A stretch of 63,898 nucleotides of DNA, the filler included, from Psammoneis japonica (Eukaryota): assembly GCA_008632985.1 (NCBI GenBank). It is 4 parts of 4 records of this genome, joined end to end, with 100 filler letters (N's around TTAATTAATTAA, not from the genome) between each part and the next. Parts side by side here need not be neighbours in the genome. Positions count along the whole stretch, not along the records: positions 1 to 20,033 come from QPGO01000478.1; 3 more parts are not named here. One strand, given 5' to 3'. Below are positions 1 through 63,142 of this stretch, in pieces. A model generated the notes under the pieces. It ran no database searches, was not told the DNA's origin, and was given only the letters and a program-made list of their open reading frames with translations. Each line of letters starts with the position of its first letter. The stretch's first letter is position 1. The translations under genes were made by a program, and so were the position numbers.

Positions 1-3
1 TCA

Positions 4-858
4 TCCATCAGAATTGGCAAGCAATGGGAGCGTCTCAATGTTTGTCAAGAAACAGAACTTTTGCAAGGACACTTCAAATTGGTCAGGAACTTGGAGAATG
101 GGCAAAAAGAGGCGGCAAAAAGGCAAGTTGACAATCTCAGAAACACGGTGTGTTCGGCTGTTGGGCGGAGGCAATGGCCCGCATGTTGGGTGACCAATGT
201 GTGTGACTCGAGAGTTGCGCGCATCTCGCAAGGAGATGACGGTGATGCTTTGTCTGTGCAGGCGTTGTCGCCAAGGAAGAGGGAAAGGAAAAAGAAAAGA
301 AACTCAAGGCGGGCAGTCAAGAGGAAAAGCAAGGCAGGAAAAAGTCAAGCCGTGACAAGAACGAAAAGAAAGACATCCCGATTGTGCCGACATGGGATCC
401 GCTTGGCCCAGACACTGTCGCTGGCAGCAAACGAAGGAACAAGCAGGCACGCAAGTGGTTCTGTGATCACACCCCTGTTTGCAAAAATTGACAAACCAAG
501 GATTGTGCGGCAATGCAATCATGGATTGGCACATGGCAACAAGGTGGAGGCAGAAATGGTGATAGTGGGCACAGCGAAAAATGGCGCACATGCTGATTCT
601 CAACAAGTTGTCGCGACATTGGCACAGCAAACTTGCAACCAGAGGTTGTGCCTTGTCATTGTGCGACAACAATTTTGTTGCCAACATTTTGACCAATTGC
701 CATCATGGCAAATCCCACACATTTTTAACGTTTCGTGCACTCTGATGCGTGTGTTGTGCACAGCATCATCGCACAGCATTTGTCCAACTCTCCCTCTCAT
801 CGCAGGATGGGTTGTTGCCATGTGGTGCATCTGCGCAGCGGACTTGCGAATTTGACCA
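4..858. repeat. ~855-bp dispersed duplication, copy A (copy B at 5781-6634); degenerate, TpA-depleted, family not identified
   Basis: TCCATCAGA(A/G)TTGGCAAGCAATGGG ... GACTTGC(G/A)AATTTGACCA aligns end to end with 5781-6634, with transitions and small indels. Confidence 0.9.
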
Positions 859-1254
859 GGTTTGGCGACATTCGGTTCTGTGCCTTTCAGTGCTGGCGCA
901 ACTGTTCATTCCTCATTCTGAGGTTTCTCATGTGCGCTGCATCCAAACTGGGTGCCTGCATTGGCGGCAGGTTCACCAGGCTCGTCGGAGTCTTTGGTGC
1001 ATCAGCAGGTTGAGCAGCAGGCTCGGCAACAGCCGCTTTCTTTGCAGCGCGAGTTTCGGCATCAACCGACTCAGCTTCCAAGGACACAGCAGCAGCTTTG
1101 CATTTCTTTTTGGCCTTCTTGGCGTCGTGGAGCTTTTGGACTTGCTCTCACTCGGGACCGTCAAGAGCACTCCGGTCGGAGATGCCCTTCAGAAAGTCAG
1201 AGACCTTCTTGGTCTCGGCCACCTGTTTGTTTGTCTGGGTGATTCTCAAAGGAT

Positions 1255-2745
1255 GTGCGTGTCTCTTTGTCATCTGCTGGAAATTCAGATGACGAAGCCA
1301 CCACTGATTTAGACTCGCACGCTGACACGTGTGCTGTTGGGTCCAATTTTGTGATGTGCTCTGACATCGACAGAACTGTCATGGTGCACCCCCACTCCAA
1401 AGAGCACGCGCCAATGGAAAACACTCCTGTTTGCACGGCTGCTGCCGTGTGGGTTGATCCAACTGATGGACAACCGTGCTTGCTGCCAGTCCACGAGGCC
1501 ATGTTTTTTGGGGACAAGATGACCAACACCCTTCTGTGCCCCAACCAACTGCAAGCAAATGGGCTGATTGTCCACGACACCCCTTGCCAGTTTGATCCGA
1601 CTGGCACGCACTCCATTGCTTTCCCTGACTTGAAGATCAGGGTGCCACTGCGAACAAGAGGCATTGCTTCTGTCTTTGATTCACACGAGCCAACAAATGA
1701 GGATCTGGAGAACCTCCCCCGGCTGGAACTCACATCACCCCCGAGATGGGAGCCTTCTGCTGATGCCATGGTGCAAAAGGAGGAAGCGCGCGCATGTGCC
1801 AGTGTGCGCCAAGGATCAGCAAAGTCGGGCGGATGGTCGACGACAATGAATGTGACCAGGTGTGTTGCTTCCATTCACTCACACCAAATGTCCTGTCATG
1901 ACGAGAGCATCATTGTGGACACTGATGACGACAATTCATTGCATCGCCGCATGGTTGCTCAGGTGAAAGTCTCCCACAACAACACCGAGGGAGACGGGCC
2001 ACACGACCGGCATGACCTGGATGTCCACCTGGATTGTGCCGAGCGGAAACGGGTGCATGCACTGTCAACCTTGAGTCGTGCATCAACTGTCACGCCCGAG
2101 ACACTCTCTAAAAGGTGGAACATTGGCCTGACGGCTGCTGAGAACACCATCAGAGTGATGACCCAGGCAGGGGTCCGCAATGTCTGCACACCATCCGAAT
2201 GGAAAGTCCGGAAGAAAGCCCCTTGGCTCAAGTTCCCTGCTGTCAAGGGACGACTCTGCTCTGACCAGATGTTTTCAAAGGTCAAATCGACACATGGCAA
2301 GATGGGAGGAAGCGCACTTGCCAACGGAAGAGGGTGTGACAGGTTCCATCCTTGGAAGAGGAAACAGGACCACCCAGATGCCGTCACGTCATTTGTGCAT
2401 GACGTTGGCACACCGCAGGTCCTTGTGTCGGATGGCGCACCGGAAATGGCGGAAGGCCAGACCAAGGAGATCTGCAAGGAATGCAGGATGCACCAGGAGG
2501 TGTCCACTCCATGCAGGCCCTGGCAGAACCTGGCCGAGGCATCCATTCGTGAGTTGAAGAAAAGAGTCCATGTGACTCTGCACTGGACTGGTGCTCACAG
2601 ACGACTTTGGTCCCACAGTGCCAAATGGACATGTGACATCCGACGCATGATTGCAGCCAGTGTGTCAGACATGGGAGGACGAGTCCCAGAAGAGGAGGTG
2701 ACAGGTTCAACACCCGACATCTCTTCCCTCTCTCTCTTTGATTGG
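1255..2745 (+). mobile_element. Ty1/Copia (diatom CoDi-type) pol fragment: aspartic protease and integrase, decayed
   Basis: The 497-aa ORF has the LDSHADT protease motif, LLCPNQL, LSKRWNIGL and integrase core (SDQMF, LVSDGAPE, PWQNLAEASIRELK, TGSTPDIS). It contains no Tyr and is cut by the satellite at 2746. Confidence 0.88.
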
Positions 2746-3009
2746 TGAAAACAAACATGTCTTTTCAAGGAAAACAAACATGTCGTTTCAAGGGGAAAAA
2801 AATGTCTTTTCAAGGAAAACAAACATGTCGTTTCAAGGAAAACAAACATGTGTTTTCAAGGAAAACAAACATGTCTTTTCAATGAAAACAAACATGTCAT
2901 TTCAAGGAAAACAAATGTGTCATTTCAAAGAAAACAAACACGTTGTTTCAGGGAAAACAAGCGTGTCATTTCAAGGAAAACAAACGTGTCTTTTCAAGGA
3001 AAACAAACA
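2746..3009 (+). repeat. 23-nt tandem satellite, array 1
   Basis: Unit AAGGAAAACAAACATGTC(T/G)TTTC repeated head to tail; translations cycle every 23 aa (three units). Confidence 0.95.
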
Positions 3010-3058
3010 CCCCACCTCAAACCAAGCAAAAGCAGGCATGGAGCAGCGCCGCCAAAAC

Positions 3059-3405
3059 TTGCAGACAGGCTCAAGTCCCGCTCTGGCACTCAGCTCTCAG
3101 CTTGTGCTCCGCACAAAACCCTCAGACAATGCTTGGCTCCAGCTGGCACCCAGAGGACTCAGTTGAAGAAACTCTGACACAAGAGCAACAGCTCTTTTCC
3201 TTTGATCTTGTTGACATGATCATGTGGAACCATGGAGATGCTGCCGTGCACGCCATCTCTCCTTGATGACCTGTGTTCTCCCTGGCTGGACCTTTCTCAC
3301 CAAACAGTTGCTCGCCGCTGAACAGAGAGCAGCGCGGGTCACATTGTCAAATGTGGGCGCAGCTGAAACACAAATTGGCTCATCTTGTGTGGCCCGCAAG
3401 GCTTG
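3059..3405 (+). mobile_element. Non-LTR retrotransposon (LINE) fragment, inverted copy of ~17607-17936
   Basis: GCAGACAGGCTCAAGTCCCGCTCTGGC...GGCCCGCAAG matches the reverse complement of the post-RT region of the LINE at 17.0-19.3 kb. Confidence 0.75.
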
Positions 3406-3868
3406 AGACCAAAAAAAAACCAAACCCCAATTTTAAGTGCCATTGCACCTTTGCCCAGCAACACCGGCGCCGGCCAACCCACACTTCCAGTGCACCCTGC
3501 GGAGGATGCGGCAGAAATGTGGTGCAGTTGGCCAGTTTCGGCGCCCCCATCAGAGGGCGCCCGGCGGAGACAGCTGCAAATGGCGCGAGCCCGCTTTTTG
3601 CCAGTCGTTTGGCTTCTTTCAGGCTGTCTTTTAGTCTTGGACGGACCACAGAGATCCAGCTTTGGATCCTCGTTGTTGAAAATGACAGTTGTTCTTCGAC
3701 CGAATCCAGCAATGCACCTCTGTCCTTTGCCAAGCATTCTTGTCGTTTGTTGCATGTCGCCATCAGTTTGGCTTCCGCCTTCCTCTGTTGAGATGATTTC
3801 CAAGAATCAACATCATGCCCGTGAACCAACTTGTTGTGCTCTTCCCAAAGTTCCCACCAGCACCTCTG

Positions 3869-5345
3869 CCATGTTTGTTTTCCTTGAAACGACATGTTTG
3901 TTTTCATTGAAAAGACATGTTTGATTTCCTTGAAACGACATGTTTGTTTTCCTTGAAACCACATGTTTGTTTTCCTTGAAAAGACACATTTGTTTTCCTT
4001 GAAACAACATGTTTGTTTTCCTTGAAATGGCGTGTTTGTTTTCCTTGAAACGACATGTTTGTTTTCCTTGAAAACACACATTTGTTTTCCTTGAAACAAC
4101 ATGATTGTTTTCCTTGAAATGGCATGTTTGTTTTCTTTGAAACGACATGTTTATTTTCCTTGAAACGACATGTTTGTTTTCATTGAAAAGACATGTTTGA
4201 TTTCCTTGAAACGACATGTTTGTTTTCCTTGAAACGACATGTTTGTTTTCCTTGAAAAGACACATTTGTTTTCCTTGAAACAACATGTTTGTTTTCCTTG
4301 AAATGGCATGTTTGTTTTCCTTGGCATGTTTGTTTTCTTTGAAACGACGTGTTTATTTCCTTGAAACGACATGTTTGTTTTCATTGAAAAGACATGTTTG
4401 ATTTCCTTGAAACGACATGTTTGTTTTCCTTGAAACAACATGTTTGTTTTCCTTGAAAAGACACACTTGTTTTCCTTGAAACAACATGTTTGTTTTCCTT
4501 GAAACGACATGTTTTTTTTACCTTGAAAAGACACATTTCTTTTCCTTGAAACAACATGTTTGTTTTCTCTGAAATGGCATGTTTGTTTTCCTTGAAACGA
4601 CATGTTTGTTTTCCTTGAAACCACATGTTTGTTTTCCTTGAAATGACACGTTTGTTTTCCTTGAAACGACATGTTTGTTTTCATTGAAAAGACATGTTTG
4701 TTTTCTTTGAAACAAAATGTTTGTTTTCCTTGAAAAGACATGTTTGTTTTCCTTGAAAAGACATGTTTGTTTTCTTTGAAACCACATGTTTGTTTTCCTT
4801 GAAACGACATGTTTGTTTCATTGAAAAGACATGTTTGATTTCCTTGAAACGACATGTTTGTTTTCCTTGAAACGACATGTTTGTTTTCCTTGAAAAGACA
4901 CATTTGTTTTCCTTGAAACAACATGTTTGTTTTCCTTGAAACGACATGTTTGTTTTCCTTGAAAAGACACATTTGTTTTCCTTGAAACAACATGTTTGTT
5001 TTCCGTGAAATGGCGCGTTTGTTTTCCTTGAAATGACATGTTTGTTTTCCTTGAAAACACACAATTGTTTTCCTTGAAACAACATGATTGTTTTCCTTGA
5101 AATGGCACGTTTGTTTTCTTTGAAACGACGTGTTTGTTTTCATTGAAACGACATGTTTGTTTTCCTTGAAAAGACATGTTTGTTTTCCTTGAAACCACAT
5201 GTTTGTTTTCCTTGAAACCACATGTTTGTTTTCCTTGAAATGACACGTTTGTTTTCCTTGAAACGACATGTTTGTTTTCATTTGTTTTCCTTGAATTGAC
5301 ATTTTTTTTTGAAATGACACGTTTGTCTTTCTTAAAACAACATGA
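3869..5345 (-). repeat. 23-nt tandem satellite, array 2 (reverse orientation)
   Basis: Tandem CATGTTTGTTTTCCTTGAAA(CGA/AGA/CCA/TGA) units. Confidence 0.95.
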
Positions 5346-5350
5346 GTTTG

Positions 5351-5607
5351 CCTTGAATTCTGCGCAAGAACGCACTGACGGAAGCAAACCAACATGATTC
5401 CATGTGCAGGAGAACAGCATCTGCACCCCACAAGAAGCTCACGCCTGTCCCCAAGTTCAGTTGGATCCATGAGACTGCAATGTGCAGCAATTTGTGGGGT
5501 TGATCCTCTCCCAGATGAAAATGTGTGACACCTCTGGAGTGCTTGAGCAGCACCCGCAATTGAGCAACTCCTTTTTTGGTGTCTGGCGGTCAAAACCTGC
5601 CACCGCC
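5351..5607 (-). mobile_element. LINE fragment, direct copy of ~17350-17606
   Basis: CCTTGAATTCTG(C/T)GCAAGA...AACATGATTCCATGTGC...CCCAAGTTCAG aligns with 17350 onward; both translate on the minus strand to LHLGEDQPHKLLHIAVS. Confidence 0.8.
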
Positions 5608-5780
5608 AATCCAGCACCACCGGCAAAGAAGAGAAAGAAAAATGAGACTGTTGAGCCAATGAGCCTGAGACTTCAGGCAGTGTTGAAGAGAATGGGCACG
5701 CAGGCAGCGCATGGTGCGCTGAAACCAGAAGTGGAGAAGGTGGCTGGAAATGATCTCTTTTCACAGGTGAAGTTTCTCAG

Positions 5781-6634
5781 TCCATCAGAGTTGGCAAGCA
5801 ATGGGGAGCATCTCAATGTTTGTCAAGAAACAGATTGCTGGTGGCAACATGGACACTTCAAATTGGTCAGGAACTTGAGAGGAATGGGCAAAAAAGGCGG
5901 CAAAAAGGCAAGTTGACAATCTCAGAAACACGGTGTGCTCGGCTGTTGGGGCGGAGGCAATGGCCCGCAAGTTGGGTGACCAATGTGTGTGACTCAAGAG
6001 TTGCGCGCATCTCACAAGAAGATGACGGTGATGCTTTGTCTGTGCAGGCGTTGTCACCAAGGAAGAGGGAAAGGAAAAAGAAAAGAAACTCAAGGCGGCA
6101 GTCAAGAGGAAAAAGCAAGGCAGGAAAAAGTCAAGCCATGACAAGAATGAAAAGAAAGACATCCCGATTGTGCCGACATGGGATCTGCTTGGCCCAGACA
6201 CTGTCGCCGGCAGCAAATGAAGGAACAAGCAGGCGTGCAAGTGGTTCTGTGATCACACCCCTGTTTGCAAAAATTGACAAACCAAGGATTGTGTTTCAAT
6301 GCAATCATGGATTGGCACATGGCAACAAGGTGGAGGCAGAAATGGCGATGTGGGCACAGTGAAAAATGGCGCACATGATTCTCAACAAGTTGTCGTGACA
6401 TTGGCACAGCAAACTTGCAACCAGAGGTTGGCCTGTCATTGTGCGACAACAATTTTTTGCAACATTTTGACAAATTGTCATCATGCAAATCCACACATTT
6501 TTAACATTTCGTGCACTCTGATGCGTGTGTTGTGCACAGCATCATCACACAGCATTTGTCCAACTCTCCCTCTCATCGCAGGATGGGTTGTCGCCATGTG
6601 GCGCATCTGCACAGCGGACTTGCAAATTTGACCA
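5781..6634. repeat. ~855-bp dispersed duplication, copy B
   Basis: Aligns with 4-858. Confidence 0.9.
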
Positions 6635-6865
6635 TGCACTCCCTCTGTCAGGCAGGATGGGTTGGTGCCATGTGGCGCATCCGGCCAAGGGAGGAGTGGG
6701 TTCGAAGCCCAGCCGCCCACCCCGGATGGGGTTGGAAAGGGGCAGGCCAAGAAAGAAAAGGAGGCTTCAATTTGAGGCCAATTCAAGCCAGCAACCTCAG
6801 GAAGCGCAGCACACATTCAGGCATGTGTTGTGAACAGCATCGTCGCACAGCATTTGTCCAACTGA

Positions 6866-8885
6866 ACATGACAGTTTTCCTTGAAAAGACATGTTTGTTT
6901 TCCTTGAAAAGACATGTTTGTTTTCCTTGAAACCACATGTTTGTTTTCCTTGAAGCCACATGTTTGTTTTCCTTGAAATGACACGTTTGTTTTCCTTGAA
7001 AAGACACGCTTGTTTTCCTTGAAACAACATGTTTCTTTTCCTTGAAAAGACATGTTTGTTTTCCTTGAAAAGACATGTTTGTTTTCCTTGAAACCACATG
7101 TTTGTTTTCCCTGAACATGTTTGTTTTCCTTAGAAACACACATTTGTTTTCCTTGAGACGACATGTTTGTTTTCCTTGAGACAACATGTTTGTTTTCCTT
7201 GAAAAGACATGTTTGTTTTCCTTGAAATGACATGTTTGTTTTCCCTGAAACGACATGTTTGTTTTCCTTGAAACCACATGTTTGTTTTCCTTGAAAACAC
7301 ATGTTTGTTTTCCTTAAAACGACATGTTTGTTTTCCTTGAAAAGACATGTTTGTTTTCCTTGAAACCACATGTTTGTTTTCCTTGAAACCACATGTTTGT
7401 TTTCCTTGAAAAGACATGTTTGTTTTCTTTGAAACTGCATGTTTGTTTTTCTTGAAAAGACATGTTTGTTTTTTTTTGAAAAAACATGTTTCTTTTCTGT
7501 GAAACCACATGTTTGTTTTCCCTGAAATGACACGTTTGTTTTCCTTGAAAGGACACGTTTGATTTTCTTGAAAAGACATGTTCGTTTTCCTTGAAAAGAC
7601 ATGCTTGTTTTCCGTGAAATGACATGTTTGTTTTCCTTGAACCACATGTTTGTTTTTCTTGAAAACACATGTTTGTTTTCCTTGAAACGACATGTTTGTT
7701 TTCCTTCAAATGACATGTTTGCTTTCCTTGAAAAGACACCTTTGTTTTCCTTGAAAACACATGTTTCTTTTCCTTGAAACCACGTGTTTGTTTTCCTTGA
7801 AAAGACATGTTTGTTTTCCTTGAAATGACACGTTTGTTTTCCATGAAACAATGTGTTTGTTTTCCTTGAAACAACACGTTTGTTTTCCTTGAAAACACAT
7901 GCTTGTTTTCCTTAAAACGACATGTTTGTTTTCCTTGAAAAAACATGTTTGTTTTCCTTGAAACAACACGTTTGTTTTCCATGAAACGACATGTTTGTTT
8001 TCTTTGAATCCACGTGTTGGTTTTCCTTGAAACGACATGTTTGTTTTCCTTGAAATGACATGTTTGTTTTCATTGAAAAGACATGCTTGTTTTCCTTGAA
8101 AAGACACACTTGTTTTCTTTGAAACGAAACGTTTGTTTTCCTTGAAACGGCATGTTTGTTTTCCTTCAAAAGACATGTTTGTTTTCAAGACATGTTTGTT
8201 TAAAACAAACATGTCTTTTTAATGGCATGTCAGTTTTCCTTGAAACGACATGTTTGTTTTCCTTGAAACCACATGTTTGTTTTCCTTGAAATGACGTGTT
8301 TGTTTTCCTTGAAACGACATGTTTGTTTTCATTGAAAAGACATGTTTGTTTTCATTGAAACGAAATGTTTGTTTTCCTTGAAAAGACATGTTTGTTTTCT
8401 TTGAAACCACATGTTTGTTTTCCTTGAAACGACATGTTTGTTTTCATTGAAAAGACATGTTTGATTTCCTTGAAACGACATGTTTGTTTTCCTTGAAACG
8501 ACATGTTTGTTTTCCTTGAAAAGACACATTTGTTTTCCTTGAAACAACATGTTTGTTTTCCTTGAAACGACATGTTTGTTTTCCTTGAAAAGACACATTT
8601 GTTTTCCTTGAAACAGCATGTTTGTTTTCCTTGAAATGGCGCATTTGTTTTCCTTGAAACAACATGTTTGTTTTTCTTGAAAACACACAATTGTTTTCCC
8701 TGAAACAACATGATTGTTTTCCTTGAAATGGCGCGTTTGTTTTCTTTGAAACGACGTGTTTGTTTTCCTTGAAACGACATGTTTGTTTTTCTTGAAAAGA
8801 CATGTTTGTTTTCCTTGAAACCACATGTTTGTTTTCCTTAAAATGACGCGTTTGTTTTCCTTGAAACGACATGCTTTTTTCCTTG
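6866..8885 (-). repeat. 23-nt tandem satellite, array 3, with a local inversion palindrome at 8187-8217
   Basis: Same unit; AAGACATGTTTGTTT-A-AAACAAACATGTCTT forms 15-bp perfect inverted arms. Confidence 0.95.
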
Positions 8886-9064
8886 GAAGAGGAAACAGGA
8901 CCACCCAGATGCCGTCATGTCATTTGTGCATGACGTTGGCGCACCGCAGGTCCTTGTGTCGGATGGCGCACCGGAAATGGCGGAAGGCCAGACCAAGGAG
9001 ATCTGCAGGGAATGCAGGATGCACCAGGAGGTGTCCACCCCATGCAGCCCCTGGCAGAACCTGG
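8882..9064 (+). mobile_element. Short duplicate of the Copia integrase segment embedded in satellite
   Basis: CCTTGGAAGAGGAAACAGGACCACCCAGATGCC...TGGCAGAACCTGG is nearly identical to 2350-2533 and 9937-10120. Confidence 0.9.
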
Positions 9065-9846
9065 CATGTTTGTTTTCCTTGAAACCACATGTTTGTTTTC
9101 CTTAAAATGACGCGTTTGTTTTCCTTGAAACGACATGTTTGTTTTCATTAAAAAGACATGTTTGTTTTCTTTGAAACGAAATGTTTGTTTTCCTTGAAAA
9201 GACATGTTTGTTTTCCTAGAAAAGACATGTTTGTTTTCTTTGAAACGACATGTTTGTTTTCCTTGAAACGACATGTTTGTTTTCATTGAAAAGACATGTT
9301 TGATTGCCTTGAAACGACATGTTTGTTTTCCTTGAAACAACATGTTTGTTTTCCTTGAAAAGACATGTTTGTTTTCATTGAAAAGACATGTTTGATTTCC
9401 TTGAAACGACATAAAGACATGTTTGTTTTCTTTGAAACAAAATGTTTGTTTTCCTTGAAAAGACATGTTTGTTTTCTTTGAAACGACATGTTTGTTTTCC
9501 TTGAAACGACATGTTTGTTTTCTCTGAAACCACATGTTTGTTTTCCCTGAAACAACACATTTGTTTTCCTTGAAAAGAAACGTTTGTTTTCCATGAAAAG
9601 ACGTGTTTGTTTTCCTTGAAAAGACATGCTTGTTTTCTTTGAAACCACACATTTGTTTTCCTTGAAACGACATGTTTGTTTTCATTGAAAAGACATGTTT
9701 GATTTCCTTGAAACGACATGTTTGTTTTCCTTGAAACAACATGTTTGTTTTCCTTGAAATGACATGTTTGTTTTCCTTGAAACCACATGTTTGTTTTCCT
9801 TAAAATGACGTGTTTGTTTTCCTTGAAACGACATGTTTTTTTCCTT
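9064..9846 (-). repeat. 23-nt tandem satellite, array 4
   Basis: Same unit, reverse orientation. Confidence 0.95.
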
Positions 9847-11555
9847 GGAAGAGGAGACAGGACCACCCAGATGCCGTCATGTCATTTGTGGGAGGAAGCG
9901 CACTTGCCAACGGAAGAGGGTGTGACAGGTTCCATCCTTGGAAGAGGAAACAGGACCACCCAGATGCCGTCATGTCATTTGTGCATGACGTTGGCGCACC
10001 GCAGGTCCTTGTGTCAGATGGCGTGCTGGAAATGGCGGAAGGCCAGTCCAAGGAGATCTGCAGGGAATGCAGGATGCACCAGGAGGTGTCCACCCAATGC
10101 AGCCCCTGGCAGAACCTGGCCGAGGCATCCATTTGTGAGTTGAAGAAAAGAGTCCGTGTGACTCTGCGCCGGACTGGCGCTCACAGACGACTTTGGTCCC
10201 ACAGCGCCAAATGGACATGTGACATCCGACGCATGATTGCAGCCTGTGTGTCAGACGTGGGAGGACGAGTCCCAGAAGAGGAGGTGACAGGTTCAACACC
10301 CGACATCTCTTCCCTCTCTCTCTTTGATTGGCGTCAACCTGTGCATTGCTGCGTGCCTGTGGTGGAGTTCCCACACGAAAAAAAGTGCGTTGGCCATTGG
10401 CTTGGCGCAGCAGACAACTGCACTGATGAAATGGCATTCATTGTTTTGCCCGAATCAGGCAAACCCATCATTCGGAAGGATGTGTGGGCCATGCCGGAGG
10501 ATGACCTTAAAACTCCGGTGATCCAGACGGATCTTGCATCGGTCGACCAAGCTTTGATCAAACGGCTCAGCACCCCGGAAAAGGGCGCCAGCGCTGACTT
10601 CCCTGAACTCCCTGATGACTTCATGGACGAATGGGACGATGCCGTTGAACCTGTGGAACCCGACGCTTCCAAACCGGAAGCTGATGAGCACACCCTGGAA
10701 GGGCTGGATGAATGTCTCACAGCTCAAGTCATGTCACCACGAGGAGGCGAGCTGACTCATGCTGGGGTCATTGCACACAAGTGAGAATGGTGACGGGGTT
10801 CCTGTTGGCACTGGGAACGACTTGAGGACATGCAACGTGGAATTCCCTGATGGATCCACCGACTCCCATGCTGCTGACACAATTGCAGAGAACCCATTCA
10901 CTCAGATCAACTCTGAAGGGAATGCCCGCCAGATCATGAAGGAAACAGTCGATCACTGACGTGATGCCCGTTGCAGTGTGCATGCAGACAAAAGGTTGTT
11001 TTTGTCACAACCTTTGTGACATTTAAATTGCAACACGTCGCCGTGATGCATTGGCTCTTGTCAGCAGCTGCGCACTGCACTTCTCCCCATGTGTCGCGCG
11101 TCCATGCGGCACTTGGCTGACGTGCACTGACACTGCACGGTTTTGGCGGAACAGTGTGGGTGCGTGCGAAGGAACACACAGAACTGCACAGAGTTTTGCG
11201 CGCTCGACAGTGATCAACGTTGCTGCGGACAACTCCCGCTCAGAGTTTCGAACCCCTGGCCTCCTGCCCAATGGTTGCGATGAACCACTCCGCCAAAAAT
11301 TCATGATGCAGCATGCATGCAGACAAAAGGTTGTTTTTGTCACGACCTTTGTGACATTTAAATTGCAGCACGTTGCCGTGATGCATCAACTCTCATTGGC
11401 AGCTGCACATTGCACCGTGCTGCAACGGCCAATGACGGGTGCACAACGACCAAGACTGGCAGGCGCGCTCCTGGGAGGACGACTGCAGGCTGGGACCTGC
11501 GAGTCGAATGGAAGGATGGGGCTGCATCCTGGGTTCCTCTTAAGGATTTGAAGTC
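9843..11555 (+). mobile_element. Second copy of the Copia integrase region, extending to a chromo-like segment; interrupted by a TRIM
   Basis: 9888-10330 duplicates ~2305-2745, then continues GHWLGAADNC...IIRKDV...AADTIAENPFTQINSEG...ETVDH and, after the insert, RTTAGWDLRVEWKDGAASWVPLKDLK. Confidence 0.85.
10972..11414 (-). mobile_element. TRIM-like non-autonomous LTR element (443 bp): two 108-bp LTRs (10972-11079, 11307-11414), 4-bp target-site duplication CCGT
   Basis: Direct repeats with TG...CA ends; CCGT at 10968-10971 and 11415-11418; removing the element restores the host frame GAT GCC CGT GCT; minus-strand polypurine tract ATGGGGAGAAG (11090-11080) abuts the left LTR; weak PBS candidate TGGCGGAGTGG (11295-11285). 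Confidence 0.85.
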
Positions 11556-13005
11556 AAAGAAAACAAACATGTCTTTTCAAGGAAAACAAACGTGTCATTT
11601 CAAGGAAAACAAACGTGCGGTTTCAAGGAAAACAAACACATGGTTTCAAGGAAAACAAACATGTCTTTTCAAGGAAAACAAACGTGTTGTTTCAAGGAAA
11701 ACAAATGTGTGTTTTCAAGGAAAACAAACATGTGGTTTCCAGGAAAGCAAACATGTCATTTCATGGAAAACAAGCATGTCTTTTCAAAGAAAACAAACAT
11801 GTCTTTTCAAGGAAAACAAACGTGTTATTTCAAGGAAAACAAACGTGTCGTTTCAAGGAAAACAAACATGTCTTTTCAAGGAAAACAAACATGTTTTTTC
11901 AAGGAAAACAAACATGTCTTTTCAAGGAAAACAAATGTGTTGTTTCAGGGAAAACAAACATGTGGTTTCAGAGAAAACAAACATGTCTTTTCAAGGAAAA
12001 CAAACATGTCGTTTCAAGAAAAACAAACGTGTCGTTTCAAAGAAAACAAACATGTCTTTTCAAGGAAAACAAACGTGTCTTTTCAAGGAAAACAAATGTG
12101 TCATTTCAGGGAAAACAAACATGTCGTTTAAAGACAAACATGTTGTTTCAAAGAAAACAAACACATCTTTTCAAGGAAAACAAACGTGTCGTTTCAAGAA
12201 AAACAAACGTGTCGTTTCAAGGAAAACAAACACATCTTTTCAGAGAAAACCAAGGTGTCATTTCAAGAAAAACAAACGTGTGGTTTCAAGGAAAACAAAC
12301 GTGTCATTTCAAGGAAAACAAACATGTCTTTTCGAGGAAAACAAACATGTCTTTTCAAGGAAAACAAACATGTCATTTCAAGGAAAACAAGCGTGTCTTT
12401 TCAGAGAAAACAAACGTGTCATTTCAAGAAAAACAAACATGTCGTTTCAAGGAAAACAGACATGTCTTGAAAACAAACATGTCGTTTCAAGGAAAACAAA
12501 CATGCGTTTTCAAGGAAAACAAACGTGTCGTTTCAAGGAAAACCAATGTGTCTTTTCAAGGAAAACAAACATGTCTTTTCAAGGAAAACAAACATGTCGT
12601 TTCAGGGAAAACAAATGTGTCGTTTCAAGGAAAACAAACGTGTCGTTTCAAGGAAAGCAAACATGCATTTTCAAGGAAAACATGTGGTTTCAAGGAAAAC
12701 AAACATGTGGTTTCAAGGAAAGCAAACATGCAGTTTCATGGAAAACAAGCATGTCTTTTCAAGGAAAACAAACACGTCTTTTCAAGAAAAACAAACGTGT
12801 CTTTTCAAGGAAAACAAATGTGTTGTTTCAAGGAAAACAAACATGTGGTTTCAGAGAAAACAAACATGTCTTTTCGAGGAAAACAAACATGTCGTTTCAA
12901 GAAAAACAAACGTGTTGTTTCAAAGAAAACAAACATGTCTTTTCAAGGAAAACAAATGTGACGTTTCAAGGAAAACAAACATGGCTTTTCAAGAAAAACA
13001 AACAT
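11556..13005 (+). repeat. 23-nt tandem satellite, array 5
   Basis: Same unit, forward orientation. Confidence 0.95.
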
Positions 13006-15992
13006 GGATGACAGTGCTTGGCAGTTTTGACTTGGTGAGCAGATGGTGCCATCCATCCGCACACCTTGCAAAGTTGTCCCGATCATCTGCCGATTCAACG
13101 ACAAGACCATGTGGTCCGGGTGTCGACAATTGTTCAGGTGAAGTCTCAACAGCCCGTTGTTTCCATCTCAATGATTTTGTTTTGTCCCGTGCAATCTTCT
13201 GGCACAACAAAAAGCAATCGTTGTCCAGCTGCTTGGAAAATGGTTCCCAAAATTCAGAAAGGCCATGACGATGCATCTGTTGCATCACACAGTTTTGGTG
13301 ATGAAGATTGGATGGGCCGCAGGCAACATCAGACCATGTCTCCTCTTTAGGAAGTGCAGCCGGCACATTCTCATCAACCTGGCTTGTGTTTGTTGTGCCG
13401 GTTTGTTCATTGGATGGCTCAACAGGCTCAGTGTCCTCATCTTGGGTTCACTTTCTGACGATTCGGTCAATTGTTCATCTTGTTGCTTCTTTCCTTTAAA
13501 GCCATCAGCCGTCTTTTTCTTTTTGCTGTCAAAGGATTTATCGCACCTTTTTTCCAGCAGTTTTCTGCCAGCGTGTGTGTGACCAATGATTGCAAGTGCG
13601 AGAAGCTTTCCCATCTTTTTGTCACACGCAAGTTGACTGAGTGTGGAAAGTCCCCCGTCAACTTGAATTCGCGGGCAGTCACATCTCTGACCTGGATGAC
13701 AATGGGATGTGCAGAATGACTCAGATGCAATCCGGTTGCATTCCTCTTTCTGTTTGGTGGACATCTCTCCAATGATTGCCTCCATCATTTGAGGGACAAT
13801 GCCAGCCTCCAATGCATGCATCATGTCAGCAACGGTCATGCCAAATGCACCACGTGGGTTGTCGCCCATGTCAAGTGGAAAGTGAGCATTGTCCACTGTG
13901 TGCTGTCCAAACACTTTTCTCAAAATTTTGGAGCATGCAGTCATTCGGCGAATGAGGGATGAAGCCAGCTCAGTCTCAGCCTTTTTTTTGATGTCATTGT
14001 GCGATTTTTTCAGGAAACGCTTTTAACATGCTGGTGCCAACGGCTGTTGTCATCCTCTGGATCCGGGCCCAATGCAGCTGCAGCGAGCAACTCTGTGAAA
14101 GCTTGGTCAAAAAATTGGCAGACATGGCTCTTCCACAAATGCGTTCTTGATTGAGGATGTCCCCCAACAGGGAGTTGCAATGCATCACAGCTCTGACATG
14201 GCGGCATTGAGTGCCTGTTGTTGCACGAACAATGGGTGGATTTGCCTGGCAATGAAGCAGACCATGGAGAACCTCCTTGAGAATGCGGTGACAGTTGGCA
14301 ACAACAAGGCACCCAAGCTTGTCTTTCTTGTCCAAATTGGGTGTGAATCCAAGTGGACGCCAACAGCGACAGTCACGGCATGCTTCCTCTTGAATCATGG
14401 TGAGTGAGTGCATTGCAGGCTCCATCCCGTGAGGATTGACCGCATCAACTCCGGTCTTGTCCAAGTGATTGACAAGGTGAGCGTGAAAATCTGATGCCGT
14501 TTCCTTGGTGTTGGAGCAACGTTGTTGCCACTCGCCGTCACCCATGTCTTGACTTTGAGTGGACAATCACCAGTCACCAGGACAATCCGGGAACGACATC
14601 TCAACACCGTCAGCCTGGCCAGCGCTGGGATCCAAATCGCCGTCAGTGGGGGGTGGCACACAAGGTGACCAGACATCATTTGGATTGACCTGCAACTTGG
14701 AAAGATCACGGAACACTGGCTTGGTGAAGAGATCCTGCAAGGTCTCAGTGAAACTGCAAAGCGGAAAAGGTGGGGAGCGACGACATTTGGGTCCACCCTT
14801 CTGTTGCTGTGTTGGATTGTCACATTCTAGCATCACAGCAGCAGTGTGGGGGAGAGGAACATTGGGAAATGACCCCAGGAGTTGCTTCATCGCCACGGCG
14901 GTCGTGATGGGTGGCTTTGTCAAATCCAGTCTTTTTTCTGCATGCTCTTCATGCAAAATTCTCACCACTTTGTCAATGAAGTCAATTGCAACACCTGACC
15001 GACGACACAAATGCAGCAAACGCACCATGGGTGCAATGCTGGGTGAGCAGACTGGAGGCACATCAAAATCCTCATCGGGTGCGACATCACGTGGTGGGCC
15101 AAGAGGGTTGTGTTGATCGAGGGAGGAAACAGGATCTTCTGTCGGACGGGAAATTGAGGGGGGGGCCACAACTGCCATCGCAATGGTCGGCTCCAATGAA
15201 CTCAGGAACATCCACAGGACTGTCCTCTCCAAGGGCAGACACACCATCATCTGCAAACAAAACAAATCGGTGGGCATTTTGGGAGGCTGCACTGGCGGCA
15301 GCAGCGTTGGCGGCTGAACGCAATTGACCAGAGCGTCTGACGGAGGGTGGGCGCAGCCCGCTTCTGGCAGAGGGAGGACAAGCTGGAGAAGAATTGTCTG
15401 TTGGTGTGGGAGGAGATGGAGCTGGATTCCAAAGGACTTCGGGGAGGGGAGGAGGGGGTTCGTCATCGGAGAAACCAAACCCAGCAGGATCATCATGGTC
15501 GTCCAGTGACTCATCATCTGGAGGGGGAAGTGCATTGGTGGCAGCAGAAGATGCCGCATGCAGGCGAAGGGACATTTCCTCCTTTTCGCGGCAGGGCAAG
15601 CACTTCTGTAGATGAAGGGCGATGTTGGAAAAGGGGACACGGCAATGGGGGCATTTGGGTTTGTTGGTGTTGGATCCAAGGGAGCCGACGGAGGCGGAAT
15701 CCAGAGGATGAGAGGAAAGAGGTGTTCTGCCGGATGAAGAAGACAACTGGGTTGTGTGGCGCAGCTGTGTCAATGGGGGATGGAGACCAGATGATGCGGT
15801 GCAGCGCCAAGACAGGTGACACTGCACATTGTTTTCAGAGTCAAATCCACGTTGTCCACAACAAGGACAACCAAAAGACTTGGTGGAAATGGCAGAACGG
15901 AGGCAGTCAGTTGCAATGTGCCTGCTGAGGCCACGTTCGGAAAAGAAACCGGCTTGTTTGCACCGTGGACAAACAAGACCATCAGATGACAT
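13006..15992 (-). mobile_element. Decayed Plavaka-like DNA transposase with N-terminal C2H2-like zinc fingers
   Basis: Frameshifted ORFs give CPRC..LSRH and CPCC..CH fingers, LQDLF..PVF..LQVNP, LDKTG, WRPLGFTPNL, LLGD..ERICGR and ADMMHALEAG, which match my recollection of Plavaka-type transposases. Confidence 0.6.
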
Positions 15993-16435
15993 GGCCGATG
16001 CACACAGATGAAGGAGTTGAGAAGAGAGTCAAAAGGAAACAGTGGGTGCAGCAACAATCACTTGGGGACACAGTGAGGGCAGAAACACAGAGACACAACG
16101 TGCGGATGGATGGGAAGGAAGGATGGAATGGGCAGGGAGAGAAAATTGAGAAGACAATTAAAGTCTAGATTGACGGACACAGGCAGCGATTTTGATCCAG
16201 AAAGTTGATCAACGCACAATCCAGAAACCAAAATGGAGCCAAACACGCACACAAGGCTTGTCAGATGGGGGAGCAAATGGCTGGATTGAGGAACACAGAT
16301 GTTTGTTGTTGAGCATTTCAGAAAAGCTGACTTGACAAATCAGCACGATCTTGGATTGAAGGGAGAAAATGTCGGGTTTTGTTTCAAGAAATCTTGACGG
16401 CCAGTGAGACACCTGGATTGTTGGTGTCCCAGATG

Positions 16436-17037
16436 ATGCTTGTTTTCCCAAAAAAGACATGTTTGTTTTCTTTGAAACAACATGTTTGTTTTTCCTTAAA
16501 AGAACATGTTTGTTTTCCTTGAAACAACACGTTTGTTTTTGTTGAAACGACGTGTTTCTTTTCCTTGAAATGACATGTTTCTTTTCCTTGAAAAGACACG
16601 TTTGTTTTTCTTAAAAACATGTGTTTGTTTTCCTTGAAATGACACGTTTGTTTCCTTGAAAACACACGTTTGTTTTCCTGGAAACAACATGTTTGTTTTC
16701 CTTGAAAAGACATGTTTGTTTTCCCAAAAAAAGACATGTTTGTTTTCTTTGAAACGACATGTTTGTTTTTCTTTAAAAGAACATGTTTGTTTTCCTTGAA
16801 AGAACATGTTTGTTTTCCTTGAAATGACATGTTTGTTTTCCTTGAAATGACATGTTTGTTTTTCCTTGCAACAACTTGTTTGTTTTCCTTGCAACAACTC
16901 ATTTGTTTTCCTTGCAACAACTTGTTCTTCGATTTCTTTGAAAGAACATGTTTGTTTTCCTTGAAATGTTTGTTTTTCTTGAAGTGGCGTGTTTGTTTTC
17001 CTTGAAATGACATGTTTGGTTTCATTGAAATGACATC
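16436..17037 (-). repeat. 23-nt tandem satellite, array 6 (more diverged)
   Basis: Same unit, reverse orientation. Confidence 0.92.
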
Positions 17038-19270: not shown

Positions 19271-20033
19271 ATCCAATGTTTGCATGTCTTGGATTGTCTT
19301 GAGGATTGGCTGGCACTTGAATGGTCTTGATGCTTGAATCTGCTTTCTCCTTGCAAGCGTCAATCTTTCGGAGCACTCTCTTTGTCTCCTGCTTCGCACA
19401 TTGCAGTTTGCAGTGGAGACTGCTGTTGGATGAAAACACGCCAAGATCCAGCAGCCGGTTTGTGTGGCTGTTCTTCAGTCTTCCAGCCTTCCATGCTTGC
19501 TTTTGCGTGTCCAACCAATGTCCAAGTCTCTCTCCATTTTCAATGTGAAATGGGGCACTTTTCAGCTTCTCTTGTGCAAAACGAAAAAATTTGAGAAGAG
19601 AAAACACAGTTTCTCAATGCTCAGCCAGAATGTCCCAATTGGCTCAGGCCTTTTTCAGTTGTTCCTGTTGAGAAGCGTCAATTTTCCTTTTCCTTGTGGC
19701 ACCCCGTTGGTCATTTGGCCATTTTCCAAAGTTCTCCCCATCCTCTTTGTGGCCCCTTGGCATGTTGCAATGTCCCTCCCATTTTGTGAATTGCTTGAGA
19801 AGAGAGGGCATTGTGCCCCATTGATTTTCCCACAAGAGCCACTCAACACTGGCCTCCTCAAGTTTTTCTTCTTTTTCAATGCCGAGCTTGCTGAGCTTGT
19901 GTTTTGTGGCCATTGGTTGTCCAACCAAATTCCAAGAGCAAAGCCATCCAGCACATTTGCTGGGAACATTGCATCTGCCTTCTCTCTCCAAGCAAACCAA
20001 GAGCAGGCTGCAAGCACAACACGGCCAATTTCA
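19270..20033 (-). pseudogene. Helicase-associated (HA) domain repeat gene relic
   Basis: Tandem W..M..LL..F...EGHCN.P....DGE..GKW...QR and LGHWLDTQKQAWKAG.L....NRLLDLG units; frameshifted and TpA-depleted. Confidence 0.7.
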
Positions 20034-61633: not shown

Positions 61634-61842
61634 TGACAGGATTTGAACAGGATTTGGGTGCGCGCGAAGCATCGCGCGCTGTTTAGTTTACCGTGCACAG
61701 TTTTGTGTGCTTTAGTTCCGCGCGTTCACGCGCGATGTAGTTTGCTTTCGAGCCACAAGGCTCACAAGAACAACAACAGCAGCCCGATTGCACCGACTTG
61801 CACGTCTTTCGGCTCCTGCAACGGTCTCTGAGCGGAGACTCA
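61634..61842 (+). repeat. Probable 3' LTR of the Copia element (~209 bp)
   Basis: Starts TGACA directly after GGGGAG; candidate end ...GAGACTCA, where CpG-rich sequence gives way to CpG-poor flank. The 5' LTR is not in the contig, so the end is unconfirmed. Confidence 0.6.

Positions 61843-63106: not shown

Positions 63107-63110
<4 letters not shown>

Positions 63111-63142
<32 letters not shown>

What the first reader, a model, noticed from the sequence alone, without database searches (positions are those of the whole stretch)
541..2110. Surviving TpA sites point to a T-A-pyrimidine target preference, as in TadA-type deaminases
Seen: the four survivors here are ATAG, TTAA, TTAG and CTAA. Elsewhere in contig 1 the survivors are mostly TTAA, TTAG or CTAG (e.g. 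~3434, ~10507, ~11024, ~14826), while TAC/TAT and GTA/ATA are nearly gone. YTAR is the only context with no TAY on either strand. Known: bacterial TadA edits the A of UACG in tRNA, and TadA-derived DNA adenine base editors prefer a 5' T. Inference: the mutator may be a natural TadA/ADAT-like enzyme acting on DNA. The bias is not absolute, since some CTAC->CCAC changes appear in the young Copia.
Basis: partly seen in the sequence, partly recalled or inferred. Interest (0 to 1): 0.72.

Follow-up and report, generated by a model that had tools for sequence, protein, structure and literature searches.

The report
Flanking-base rule of a TpA mutator
In the repeated DNA of this protist genome almost every TA step has been mutated to CA or TG, and the few TA steps left sit mostly in TTAA, TTAG or CTAG surroundings, which gives a sequence fingerprint for the unknown enzyme behind a recently described kind of genome defence.

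Summary
Positions 541-2110 hold 4 TpA (ATAG, TTAA, TTAG, CTAA) where base composition predicts 85.5. This region alone is not significant, but the wider set is. Of 54 TpA left in 26 kb of strongly depleted non-satellite DNA, 40 are YTAR, 13 mixed and 1 RTAY. Unique DNA has 16-25% YTAR (p 1e-12 to 1e-18).

The depletion is real TA->CA/TG hypermutation. In the window's Copia elements 27 of 34 conserved tyrosines are now Cys (TGY) or His (CAY). Two 94.5%-identical Copia copies from independent metagenome contigs differ mainly by TA versus CA/TG and by CA-versus-TG pairs, and they show the same context gradient.

The test of which strand was hit supports the rule in the window's young Copia (p 0.014) but not in the environmental copies. 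Recognition of the duplex RTAY context is therefore an equally live reading.

The TadA link is untested because no genome is held. The +1 preference is the reverse of ADAR and of fungal ADAT editing.

TpA-specific hypermutation of foreign DNA was described in 2026 for Bigelowiella natans. The flanking rule and this lineage are new.

The parts
541..2110 (.). The finding region. It holds 4 surviving TpA (563 ATAG, 726 TTAA, 1310 TTAG, 2109 CTAA) in 1570 bp.
   Evidence: 85.5 TpA expected from base composition.
1243..2745 (+). Hypermutated fragment of a Copia-type polyprotein (protease/integrase half), cut off by the satellite at 2747.
   Evidence: 43-47% identity over about 97% of its length to roughly 1400-aa RVT_2 polyproteins. 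It has 0 Tyr. All 5 conserved Tyr columns are now Cys (3) or His (2). It also carries cross-codon t|A->t|G changes and CpG decay.
1..20033 (.). Contig 1: a repeat block almost free of TpA (43 TpA; o/e 0.00-0.05). CpA and TpG are at 1.3-1.9 and CpG at 0.2-1.0.
2747..17036 (.). Five arrays of a 23-bp satellite in both orientations (2747-3009, 3870-5279, 6874-9847, 11554-13006, 16436-17036). TpA occurs at the TCAA site (TTAA, 10 of 266 monomers) and never at the CATG core.
20134..20600 (.). TpA-depleted start of contig 2.
31620..33760 (.). A 2.1-kb TpA-depleted island with sharp edges inside gene-bearing DNA of contig 2.
   Evidence: No terminal repeats were found.
38303..46900 (.). Old unclassified repeat DNA, depleted in both TpA (14 left) and CpG (o/e 0.0-0.3).
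56483..61750 (+). 'Young' Copia element (ORFs 56732-60112 and 60100-61686) with normal CpG and 37 TpA left (o/e 0.0-0.4). It is the half-converted stage.
   Evidence: RVT_2 hit. Of 29 conserved Tyr columns, 17 are now Cys, 5 His, 1 Phe, 1 Trp and 5 kept. Survivor contexts.
61751..63898 (.). Old repeat DNA next to the Copia, depleted in TpA and CpG (5 TpA left).

Best explanation
The four TpA sites are leftovers of a near-saturating, strand-symmetric TpA->CpA/TpG (A:T->G:C) hypermutation. It has hit the repeated and transposon DNA of this genome, about 60% of the window, and has spared the unique DNA.

How fast a TpA is lost depends on its neighbours. R-TA-Y, and above all A-TA / TA-T, goes first. 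Y-TA-R goes last, especially TTAA, TTAG/CTAA and CTAG. A further A at +2 (TTTAAA- and TCTAGA-like surroundings) also protects.

The most likely chemistry is inferred, not shown: enzymatic deamination of adenine to hypoxanthine in DNA of silenced repeats, read as G at the next replication, on either strand. This is the same kind of process measured directly in Bigelowiella natans in 2026. The confidence of 0.6 is a blend: about 0.9 that the hypermutation and its context rule are real, and about 0.45-0.5 that the agent is a DNA adenine deaminase.
For: (1) Direction of change. Against 60, 70 and 42 homologues, 34 conserved Tyr columns of the window's Copia ORFs are now 20 Cys (TGY), 7 His (CAY), 2 other and 5 Tyr. 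Also seen are Ile->Met, Val->Ala and cross-codon t|A->t|G changes.

(2) Confinement to TpA. TA o/e is 0.00-0.05, while both CA and TG are raised, mostly to 1.4-2.3. TpA density is 1.6-5 per kb against 43 per kb in unique DNA. The edges are sharp, within about 100 bp.

(3) The process is not limited to retroelements. Satellite arrays and unclassified repeats are equally TA-free.

(4) Independent replicate. 3 of 49 related Copia loci from metagenome contigs are TA-depleted. L028 and L029 (94.5% identity, 1722 bp) differ at 99 positions, 87 of them transitions. There are 20 adjacent CA<->TG pairs, 25 TA-versus-CA/TG sites and only 8 CpG-type sites, so 65 of the 99 positions are TpA events that arose independently in each copy. 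2 of 120 homologous RT proteins from other assemblies carry the Tyr->His/Cys signature.

(5) Context rule in the window. 40 YTAR, 13 mixed and 1 RTAY among 54 survivors. Fitted loss constants for T-A-N are T 3.7-3.9, C 2.4-2.5, G 1.2-1.3 and A 0.4-0.9 in old repeats, and T 2.3-2.4, C 0.9-1.0, A 0.7-1.2 and G 0.3-0.4 in the young Copia. At +2, A is 0.63 among survivors against 0.25 in the background.

(6) The same gradient appears elsewhere. In L028/L029, lineage conversions are YTAR 18/36, mixed 24/38 and RTAY 14/16 (trend p 0.012). Survivors are 50% and 46% YTAR against 17% in 46 reference loci.

(7) Precedent. In B. natans mutation-accumulation lines, 230 of 231 mutations in two integrated viral regions were A->G or T->C, all at TpA, and the authors propose an ADAT2-like DNA deaminase (bioRxiv 10.64898/2026.01.13.699255; abstract, Results and Discussion read).
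Against: No enzyme was seen, and nothing in the sequence tells adenine chemistry from thymine chemistry.

The per-strand T-A-Y reading fails the product test outside the window (L028 reversed, p 0.02; L029 and L015 null; mixed contexts 13:11). Inside the window it is only modestly better than a constant ratio (logL -27.97 against -28.86).

Over the whole Copia the predicted products (YTGY/RCAR) and the opposite products rise about equally relative to 46 reference loci. The excess of predicted products in old repeats (M1/M2 1.4-1.7 against 1.19) rests on an assumed ancestral composition and on CpG decay being symmetric.

The ancestral TpA numbers in the survival fit are estimates taken from unique DNA, not from unmutated copies.

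The young Copia and the old repeats disagree on whether TAA or TAG is the most protected.

The host organism is not identified, and dependence on copy number could not be tested.
Confidence: 0.6

Rival explanations
1. The hypermutation is the same, but the mutator reads the double-stranded tetranucleotide. Alternating purine-pyrimidine R-T-A-Y is preferred and Y-T-A-R is refractory, and either adenine is then hit almost at random. Under this reading there is no single-strand T-A-Y preference of the TadA kind.
For: In the L028/L029 pair, 20 of about 45 doubly converted sites took different products, including at mixed contexts (CTAC, TTAC, ATAG). Mixed-context products split 13:11. Across the Copia both product classes rise about equally. 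Log survival is additive over the two flanks (YTAR 0.170, mixed 0.022, RTAY 0.0034), which both models predict. A at +2 also matters, suggesting a footprint of about 6 bp.
Against: In the window's young Copia, T->C is frequent only when the 5' base is a purine (RTAY CA 12 of 20; YTAY CA 5 of 23; p 0.014). Per-context product ratios track the survival-derived per-strand rates for 6 of 8 contexts. Old repeats show more YTGY/RCAR than YCAY/RTGR.
Confidence: 0.3
2. The thymine is the base attacked, not the adenine. For example, T in R-T-A could be oxidised by a TET/JBP-type dioxygenase to 5-hydroxymethyl- or 5-formyl-uracil, which mispairs with G and gives T->C.
For: T->C at N-T-A is the exact complement of A->G at T-A-N, so every count fits this equally. 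That oxidised thymines are mutagenic towards T->C, and that dinoflagellate hydroxymethyluracil favours TpA, is recalled and comes from no call.
Against: There is no direct evidence. No such gene lies in the window. The one experimental precedent is interpreted by its authors as adenine deamination, also without proof.
Confidence: 0.12
3. The changes come from A-to-I editing of retrotransposon RNA or cDNA (ADAR-, ADAT- or APOBEC-style restriction), fixed when the edited copy integrates. Under this reading they were never made in chromosomal DNA.
For: Each Copia copy carries its own pattern, as expected if each was edited at its own retrotransposition. There is a mild excess of sense-strand A->G in the window's Copia (TG 26: CA 17).
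Against: Both strands are hit within the same copy, with changes switching within 2-30 bp. A 23-bp satellite and unclassified non-coding repeats are just as TA-free. TAG, the preferred triplet of ADAR and fungal ADAT, is among the best protected here. The depleted zones have sharp edges unrelated to element ends.
Confidence: 0.05
4. The surviving TpA are not survivors. They are new TpA made by ordinary mutation after the purge, so their context says nothing about the mutator.
For: In the satellite, TTAA arises where the consensus has TCAA (10 of 266 monomers), so some TpA are probably new.
Against: New TpA made from CA/TG should mirror the flanks of all Y-R steps (22-26% YTAR), not 60-79%. At the satellite's ACAT site a T never stands beside an A (TG 25, TA 0 of 266), while at TCAA it does. 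New TpA are therefore also filtered by context. The half-converted Copia and L028/L029 show the same gradient among TpA that are ancestral.
Confidence: 0.05
5. The pattern is an artefact: a modified base at TpA misread by the sequencer, or an assembly or polishing error.
Against: The same signature occurs in independent metagenome assemblies and in proteins from other assemblies. CA and TG outcomes alternate within 2 bp in one contig, which misreading by strand of origin would not give. Open reading frames stay intact, with Tyr replaced by Cys or His.
Confidence: 0.03

Closest known systems
TpA hypermutation of integrated viral DNA in Bigelowiella natans (Mettrop et al., bioRxiv 10.64898/2026.01.13.699255; abstract, Results and Discussion read)
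   Same: Almost exclusively A->G/T->C, only at TpA, on both strands. It is regional, aimed at foreign or silent DNA, and leaves TpA-poor, CpA+TpG-rich blocks that include reverse-transcriptase genes. An ADAT2-like DNA adenine deaminase is proposed there too.
   Different: There it was measured de novo in mutation-accumulation lines, on single-copy giant-virus and virophage inserts, with modest depletion (rho 0.45). Here it is inferred from sequence, is nearly saturating (o/e 0.02-0.05), covers about 60% of the window, and hits LTR retrotransposons, a satellite and old repeats. The host's nearest named relatives are diatoms. The preprint's main text has no flanking-base analysis ('flanking', 'context' and 'tetranucleotide' give 0 hits). 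Its supplementary mutation table could not be opened.
Repeat-induced point mutation (RIP) of fungi
   Same: A transition-only, strand-symmetric, dinucleotide-specific hypermutation of repeated DNA with sharp borders. It inactivates transposons and skews dinucleotide indices.
   Different: The polarity is opposite: RIP makes TpA from CpA, and this process destroys TpA and makes CpA/TpG. This process cannot create stop codons, so all six frames stay open (77 ORFs of 150 aa or more). Dependence on duplication is not shown here, and the B. natans target is single-copy.
TadA / ADAT2-ADAT3 tRNA adenosine deaminases, TadA-derived base editors and fungal ADAT2/3 mRNA editing
   Same: The target A follows a U/T. 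Fungal editing has U at -1 in 85.7% of sites (PMC4817773). TadA can be evolved to act on DNA (recalled).
   Different: The +1 preference of fungal ADAT editing is A~G>U>C, and UAG/UAA are its best triplets. Here TAA and TAG are the protected ones and TAT is the most sensitive. TadA's natural UACG site (recalled) has C at +1, which here ranks second. No such gene could be looked for.
ADAR and APOBEC3 hypermutation of viruses and retroelements
   Same: Deaminase-driven clustered transitions that disable parasitic sequences. ADAR also favours a 5' U.
   Different: ADAR prefers a 3' G and edits RNA duplexes. APOBEC3 changes C on one cDNA strand. Here both DNA strands and non-retro repeats are affected, and a 3' G protects.

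Membership tests
TpA-directed A:T->G:C hypermutation of foreign/silent DNA (B. natans type) | Mutations are almost only A->G / T->C. | tested here: met
   In L028 versus L029, 87 of 99 differences are transitions. In the window, Tyr became Cys or His at 27 of 34 conserved columns.
TpA-directed A:T->G:C hypermutation of foreign/silent DNA (B. natans type) | The changes are confined to TpA and produce TpG and CpA on the two strands. | tested here: met
   TA o/e is 0.00-0.05 with both CA and TG raised. 65 of 99 differing positions in the pair lie at inferred TpA. At inferred ancestral TA sites of the young Copia there are TG 26 and CA 17.
TpA-directed A:T->G:C hypermutation of foreign/silent DNA (B. 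natans type) | The process is regional and aimed at foreign or silenced sequence, not at host genes. | tested here: met
   Depleted blocks are Copia elements, satellite and degenerate repeats with sharp edges. Gene-bearing DNA keeps 43 TpA per kb. Silencing itself was not tested.
TpA-directed A:T->G:C hypermutation of foreign/silent DNA (B. natans type) | De novo occurrence at a rate about 1000-fold above background. | not testable with these tools
   This needs mutation-accumulation or pedigree data. As indirect evidence, the L028/L029 pair shows about 65 lineage events at some 50-75 TpA sites, against 26 non-CpG other changes in 1722 bp.
TadA / ADAT2-3 type deaminase as the agent | A CDA-fold (HxE...PCxxC) adenosine deaminase is encoded and acts in the nucleus. 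| not testable with these tools
   No genome is held. No deaminase domain was found among the 12, 104 and 53 window ORFs scanned.
TadA / ADAT2-3 type deaminase as the agent | The target adenine is preceded by U/T. | tested here: met
   All inferred conversions are at TpA.
TadA / ADAT2-3 type deaminase as the agent | The 3' neighbour preference matches known members: C in TadA's UACG (recalled), or A~G>U>C in fungal ADAT2/3 editing. | tested here: not met
   The order here is T>C>G>=A in old repeats and T>C~A>G in the young Copia. This is the reverse of the fungal order. C is accepted but T is better.
TadA / ADAT2-3 type deaminase as the agent | The enzyme acts on one strand at a time, so the product at YTAY/RTAR sites is set by the T-A-Y strand. 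| tested here: inconclusive
   Window Copia: YTAY 18 TG: 5 CA against RTAY 8:12, p 0.014. L028 is reversed (p 0.02). L029 and L015 are null. Mixed contexts in the pair split 13:11.
Fungal RIP | C:G->T:A transitions, mainly CpA->TpA. | tested here: not met
   The direction is the opposite.
Fungal RIP | It is triggered by sequence duplication. | tested here: inconclusive
   Copy numbers are unknown without a genome. One duplicate pair in contig 1 (10972-11080 and 11307-11415) differs by 14 transitions including 4 CA<->TG pairs. Another (2303-2745 and 9889-10331) has only 1 such pair among 19 differences.
ADAR-type RNA editing fixed by retrotransposition | A->G on the sense strand only, a 3' G preference, and restriction to retroelements. 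| tested here: not met
   Both strands are hit. TAG is protected. Satellite and unclassified repeats are equally depleted.

The most novel reading that the evidence does not exclude
A dedicated DNA adenine-deaminase genome defence, a 'reverse RIP', exists in at least two distant protist lineages: a chlorarachniophyte, and the diatom-like host of this window together with its environmental relatives. Its R-T-A-Y > Y-T-A-R rule, with A at +2 protecting, matches no characterised A-deaminase. The enzyme would then be a new DNA-specific family or a repurposed paralogue rather than the housekeeping ADAT2/3, and a natural TpA-specific DNA adenine editor.
Probability: 0.3. Interest if true: 0.9.

Novelty: new member of a known kind. 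Interest (0 to 1): 0.68.

Why it matters
Until the 2026 B. natans preprint, no eukaryote was known to mutate adenines in its own DNA as a defence. This window shows the same TpA->CpA/TpG process carried almost to completion in a different genome, and related Copia copies in public metagenomes carry it too. The process is therefore probably widespread and has been overlooked.

The flanking-base rule is the first quantitative fingerprint of the agent. It can be checked directly against the B. natans de novo mutation list. It argues against an ADAR-like or fungal-ADAT-like specificity. It also gives a simple assay readout, NTAN oligonucleotides, for candidate enzymes. A natural DNA adenine deaminase with TpA specificity would also interest base-editor engineering.

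For annotation, such DNA has lost TAA and TAG, so it yields long spurious ORFs in all six frames.

Tried and rejected
(1) A whole-genome tabulation was not possible, because no genome is held.

(3) A window self-comparison found no pair of a mutated and an unmutated copy. It found only satellite arrays and five duplicate pairs already TA-free. CA<->TG pairs there are ambiguous wherever CpG is also depleted.

(4) The 23-bp satellite could not be polarised. The CATG core varies as CA/CG/TG with no TA, which is suggestive only.

(5) The product-side tetranucleotide test gave conflicting answers depending on the baseline. Old repeats against unique DNA favour T-A-Y. The Copia against 46 reference loci shows no preference.

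(6) No terminal repeats define the 31620-33760 island.

(7) Pfam scans of 104 ORFs from the depleted DNA recognised only HA-domain remnants and weak hits.

(8) A viral-contig scan with the asparagine synthase found no relative. Cluster look-ups gave no organism names for the Copia homologues.

(9) Earlier notes of this scan hold nothing on this genome or this process.

(10) Two reviews searched for the base-editor 'YAC' context gave no usable passage, so that point stays recalled.

(11) Nine literature searches found only the B. natans preprint for TpA-directed hypermutation, and nothing for diatoms.

Rejected readings: a natively TA-poor element composition (refuted by Tyr->Cys/His), GC-biased gene conversion (it is not TpA-specific), and selection on TTAA.
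Full report
WHAT THE WINDOW IS. The 63,898 bases are four contigs joined by N/TTAATTAATTAA spacers: 1-20033, 20134-38202, 38303-56382 and 56483-63898. No whole genome is held. The host is not identified. The nearest named relatives of two genes are diatoms. The asparagine synthase plus N-acetyltransferase at 23232-26059 is 43-45% identical to fused Thalassiosira proteins, and its best unnamed hit is 67%. The Copia reverse transcriptase is 67% identical to a Cylindrotheca fusiformis entry. Against a diatom host, the unique DNA of contig 3 has no ORF above about 160 aa and no Pfam hit. The asparagine synthase also resembles giant-virus clusters in the ESM Atlas.

THE OBSERVATION. Positions 541-2110 hold exactly four TpA: 563 ATAG, 726 TTAA, 1310 TTAG and 2109 CTAA. 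Base composition predicts 85.5. The region lies in a contig that is almost TpA-free: 43 TpA in 20 kb, with o/e 0.00-0.05. The same state holds at 20134-20600, 31620-33760, 38303-46900 and 61751-63898. In those blocks both CpA and TpG are raised, mostly to 1.4-2.3. The Copia at 56483-61750 is partly depleted (37 TpA, o/e 0.0-0.4) and has normal CpG. Together the depleted blocks cover about 38.5 of 63.6 kb. Unique DNA keeps 43 TpA per kb, against 1.6-5 per kb in the blocks.

IS THE CONTEXT BIAS MORE THAN CHANCE? Three YTAR of four in the finding region is not significant alone. Over all strongly depleted non-satellite DNA, the 54 survivors are 40 YTAR, 13 mixed and 1 RTAY. The two unique-DNA baselines have 16% and 25% YTAR, and 30% and 22% RTAY (Fisher p 7.6e-19 and 1.6e-12). 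Each block alone gives 60-79% YTAR. The flanks of all Y-R steps in the same DNA are flat (22-26% YTAR), so composition is not the cause. The satellite has 14 YTAR of 19.

THE SURVIVAL MODEL. I normalised by the conserved quantity "all Y-R steps per flank pair" and fitted a Poisson model. In it, loss is the sum of a term for the base 3' of the A on each strand. In old repeats the terms are T 3.8, C 2.5, G 1.3 and A 0.6. In the young Copia they are T 2.4, C 1.0, A 0.9 and G 0.4. The fitted counts are close to the observed counts in all 16 contexts. The order holds with either baseline or a flat one (LRT 67-111 and 21-26, df 3). The protected context extends further: at +2, A is 0.63 among survivors against 0.25 in the background, and 0.39 against 0.20 in the Copia.

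WHAT THE DEPLETION IS. It is mutation, not native composition.
- The ORF at 1243-2745, which covers most of the finding region, is the protease/integrase half of a Copia polyprotein (43-47% identity to roughly 1400-aa RVT_2 proteins). It has no tyrosine. All 5 columns where 42 homologues conserve Tyr are now Cys (3) or His (2). It also has cross-codon t|A->t|G changes (Ile->Val, Thr->Ala, Ser->Gly, Lys->Glu) and CpG decay (Arg->Gln/His/Trp).
- In the young Copia, 29 conserved Tyr columns are now 17 Cys, 5 His, 1 Phe, 1 Trp and 5 Tyr.
- Both strands are hit.
- A 23-bp satellite and unclassified repeats are equally TA-free. The process is therefore not tied to reverse transcription.
- TA->CA/TG cannot create stop codons and removes TAA and TAG. 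This explains the 77 ORFs of 150 aa or more and the spurious Pfam hits in the satellite.

INDEPENDENT REPLICATE. A metagenome scan with the RT protein returned 49 Copia loci. Of these, 46 have ordinary TpA (o/e 0.52-1.02) and 3 are depleted: L029 0.13, L028 0.27 and L015 0.31, all with near-normal CpG. L028 and L029 come from different contigs and are 94.5% identical over 1722 bp. Of their 99 differences, 87 are transitions. There are 20 adjacent CA<->TG pairs, 25 TA-versus-CA/TG sites and 8 CpG-type sites, and only 26 positions are anything else. So each copy lost its TpA independently, at a per-site rate far above background. CA and TG outcomes alternate within 2 bp, which rules out misreading by strand of origin. 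2 of 120 RT homologues from other assemblies carry the Tyr->His/Cys signature (11 and 8 of 22 columns; all others have 2 or fewer).

The context gradient recurs in these copies. Lineage conversions in the pair are YTAR 18/36, mixed 24/38 and RTAY 14/16 (trend p 0.012). Survivors are 50% and 46% YTAR against 17% in the 46 reference loci. L015 is weaker, at 24% and not significant.

IS THE RULE "T-A-PYRIMIDINE ON ONE STRAND"? Survival alone cannot tell a single-strand 3'-neighbour rule from recognition of the duplex tetranucleotide, because both predict additive flank effects. The discriminating test is which base changed at YTAY and RTAR sites.
- Window's young Copia. At sites where at least half of the non-depleted reference loci have TA, YTAY gave TG 18: CA 5 and RTAY gave TG 8: CA 12 (p 0.014). 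Per-context ratios follow the survival-derived rates in 6 of 8 contexts, but the likelihood gain is small.
- Adding the five Tyr sites of contig 1 weakens the test to p 0.08.
- Old repeats hold more of the predicted products (YTGY+RCAR against YCAY+RTGR is 1.4-1.7, against 1.19 in unique DNA). This leans on an assumed ancestry.
- Against 46 reference Copia loci, both product classes rise about equally.
- In the environmental copies the test is null (L015, L029) or reversed (L028, p 0.02). Mixed contexts in the pair split 13:11.

I therefore treat T-A-Y as a good description of which TpA are lost, and as unproven for how the enzyme reads DNA.

MECHANISM AND KNOWN RELATIVES. The closest known system is the TpA-specific hypermutation measured in Bigelowiella natans mutation-accumulation lines. 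There, 230 of 231 mutations in an integrated giant-virus region and a virophage region were A->G or T->C, all at TpA, at about 1000 times the background rate. The authors also found TpA-poor coding sequences enriched in reverse transcriptases, and they propose an ADAT2-like DNA adenine deaminase (bioRxiv 10.64898/2026.01.13.699255; abstract, Results and Discussion read). Its main text has no flanking-base analysis, and I could not open its supplementary tables.

The present case differs in four ways. The depletion is near saturation. The targets are LTR elements, a satellite and old repeats. It affects about 60% of the sampled DNA, whereas the preprint counts 124 clusters in the whole B. natans genome. 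The apparent host lineage is also different.

The case resembles fungal RIP in logic but has the opposite polarity. The context rule separates it from characterised A-deaminases. Fungal ADAT2/3 mRNA editing has U at -1 but A~G>U>C at +1, with UAG and UAA as its best triplets. ADARs prefer G at +1 (PMC4817773, passages read; the abstracts of PMC11156358, PMC11087585 and PMC10962958 were seen in the listing). Here TAA and TAG are the protected triplets. TadA's UACG site and the early base-editor preference are recalled and not verified (searches gave nothing usable). C at +1 is accepted here, but T is better.

Adenine deamination on DNA is the most economical chemistry, but it is inferred. Attack on the thymine, for example oxidation followed by mispairing, fits every count equally well.

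ORDER OF EVENTS (inference). The young Copia has lost about 85% of its expected TpA and still has normal CpG. Older blocks have lost both. The TpA process therefore acts faster than CpG decay.

LIMITS. Reads could not be examined. Ancestral TpA numbers in the survival model are estimates. The product tests rest on 43 window sites and 19-24 sites per environmental copy. L028 and L029 share ancestry. Dependence on copy number, the activity of the process today and the enzyme are all untested. Nine literature searches found no other report of TpA-directed hypermutation and none in diatoms. The library lacks most subscription journals.

VERDICT. The finding is a new member, with a new quantitative fingerprint, of a kind of genome defence first described in 2026.

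Noticed in passing
window 2747-3009, 3870-5279, 6874-9847, 11554-13006, 16436-17036: A 23-bp satellite (about 290 monomers) lies in both orientations, interleaved with Copia fragments. Larger units are duplicated (4-858 ~ 5781-6634 at 93.5%; 2303-2745 ~ 9889-10331 at 95.7%). Its CATG core varies as CA/CG/TG (A/G at monomer position 11 in 65 of 266 monomers, T/C at position 12 in 22 of 266) and is never TA.
   Followed up: partly
window 21090-38202 (contig 2): A run of long intron-less ORFs: sulfotransferase (21090-21989, minus strand), asparagine synthase (23232-24752) overlapping an N-acetyltransferase ORF (24707-26059; the two are fused in Thalassiosira proteins), a 1084-aa glycosyltransferase-2 / GTP cyclohydrolase II protein (26460-29714, minus strand), and a DUF5898 kinase-like protein (35953-38202). 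By ESM Atlas features the asparagine synthase is nearest to giant-virus clusters. This block is not TpA-depleted, unlike the viral inserts of B. natans.
   Followed up: partly
window 33230-33765: The TpA-free zone runs about 300-500 bp beyond the CpG-poor zone on the right side of the contig-2 island. CpG returns from 33482 while TpA returns only at 33765. This could be leakage of the mutator into flanking DNA, or a younger fragment.
   Followed up: no
window 1-20033, 38303-46900, 61751-63898: TAA and TAG are gone, so the depleted DNA is open in all six frames (most of the 77 ORFs of 150 aa or more). It gives spurious family hits such as 'LbR_Ice_bind' on translated satellite. A gene caller would over-predict here.
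   Followed up: yes
window 19272-20030 (minus strand): Remnants of Helicase-associated (HA, PF03457) domains lie inside TpA- and CpG-depleted DNA at the end of contig 1.
   Followed up: no
window 1-20033 vs 38303-46900 vs 56483-61750: CpG depletion differs greatly among TpA-depleted blocks (o/e about 0.9 in the young Copia, 0.5-0.7 in most of contig 1, 0.0-0.3 in contig 3). This gives a relative clock in which TpA loss comes before CpG loss.
   Followed up: partly
L028:129-1850 and L029:1-1722: In L028 the product choice at Tyr-type sites is the reverse of the window's (YTAY gives CA 8 : TG 1; RTAY gives TG 7 : CA 3). This hints at a locus-specific strand bias, for example replication or transcription direction, on top of the context rule.
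   Followed up: partly
window 47100-56382: Nine kb of compositionally ordinary DNA (TpA o/e 0.5-1.4) has no ORF above about 160 aa and no Pfam hit. This is unlike gene-dense diatom DNA and leaves the host's identity open.
   Followed up: partly
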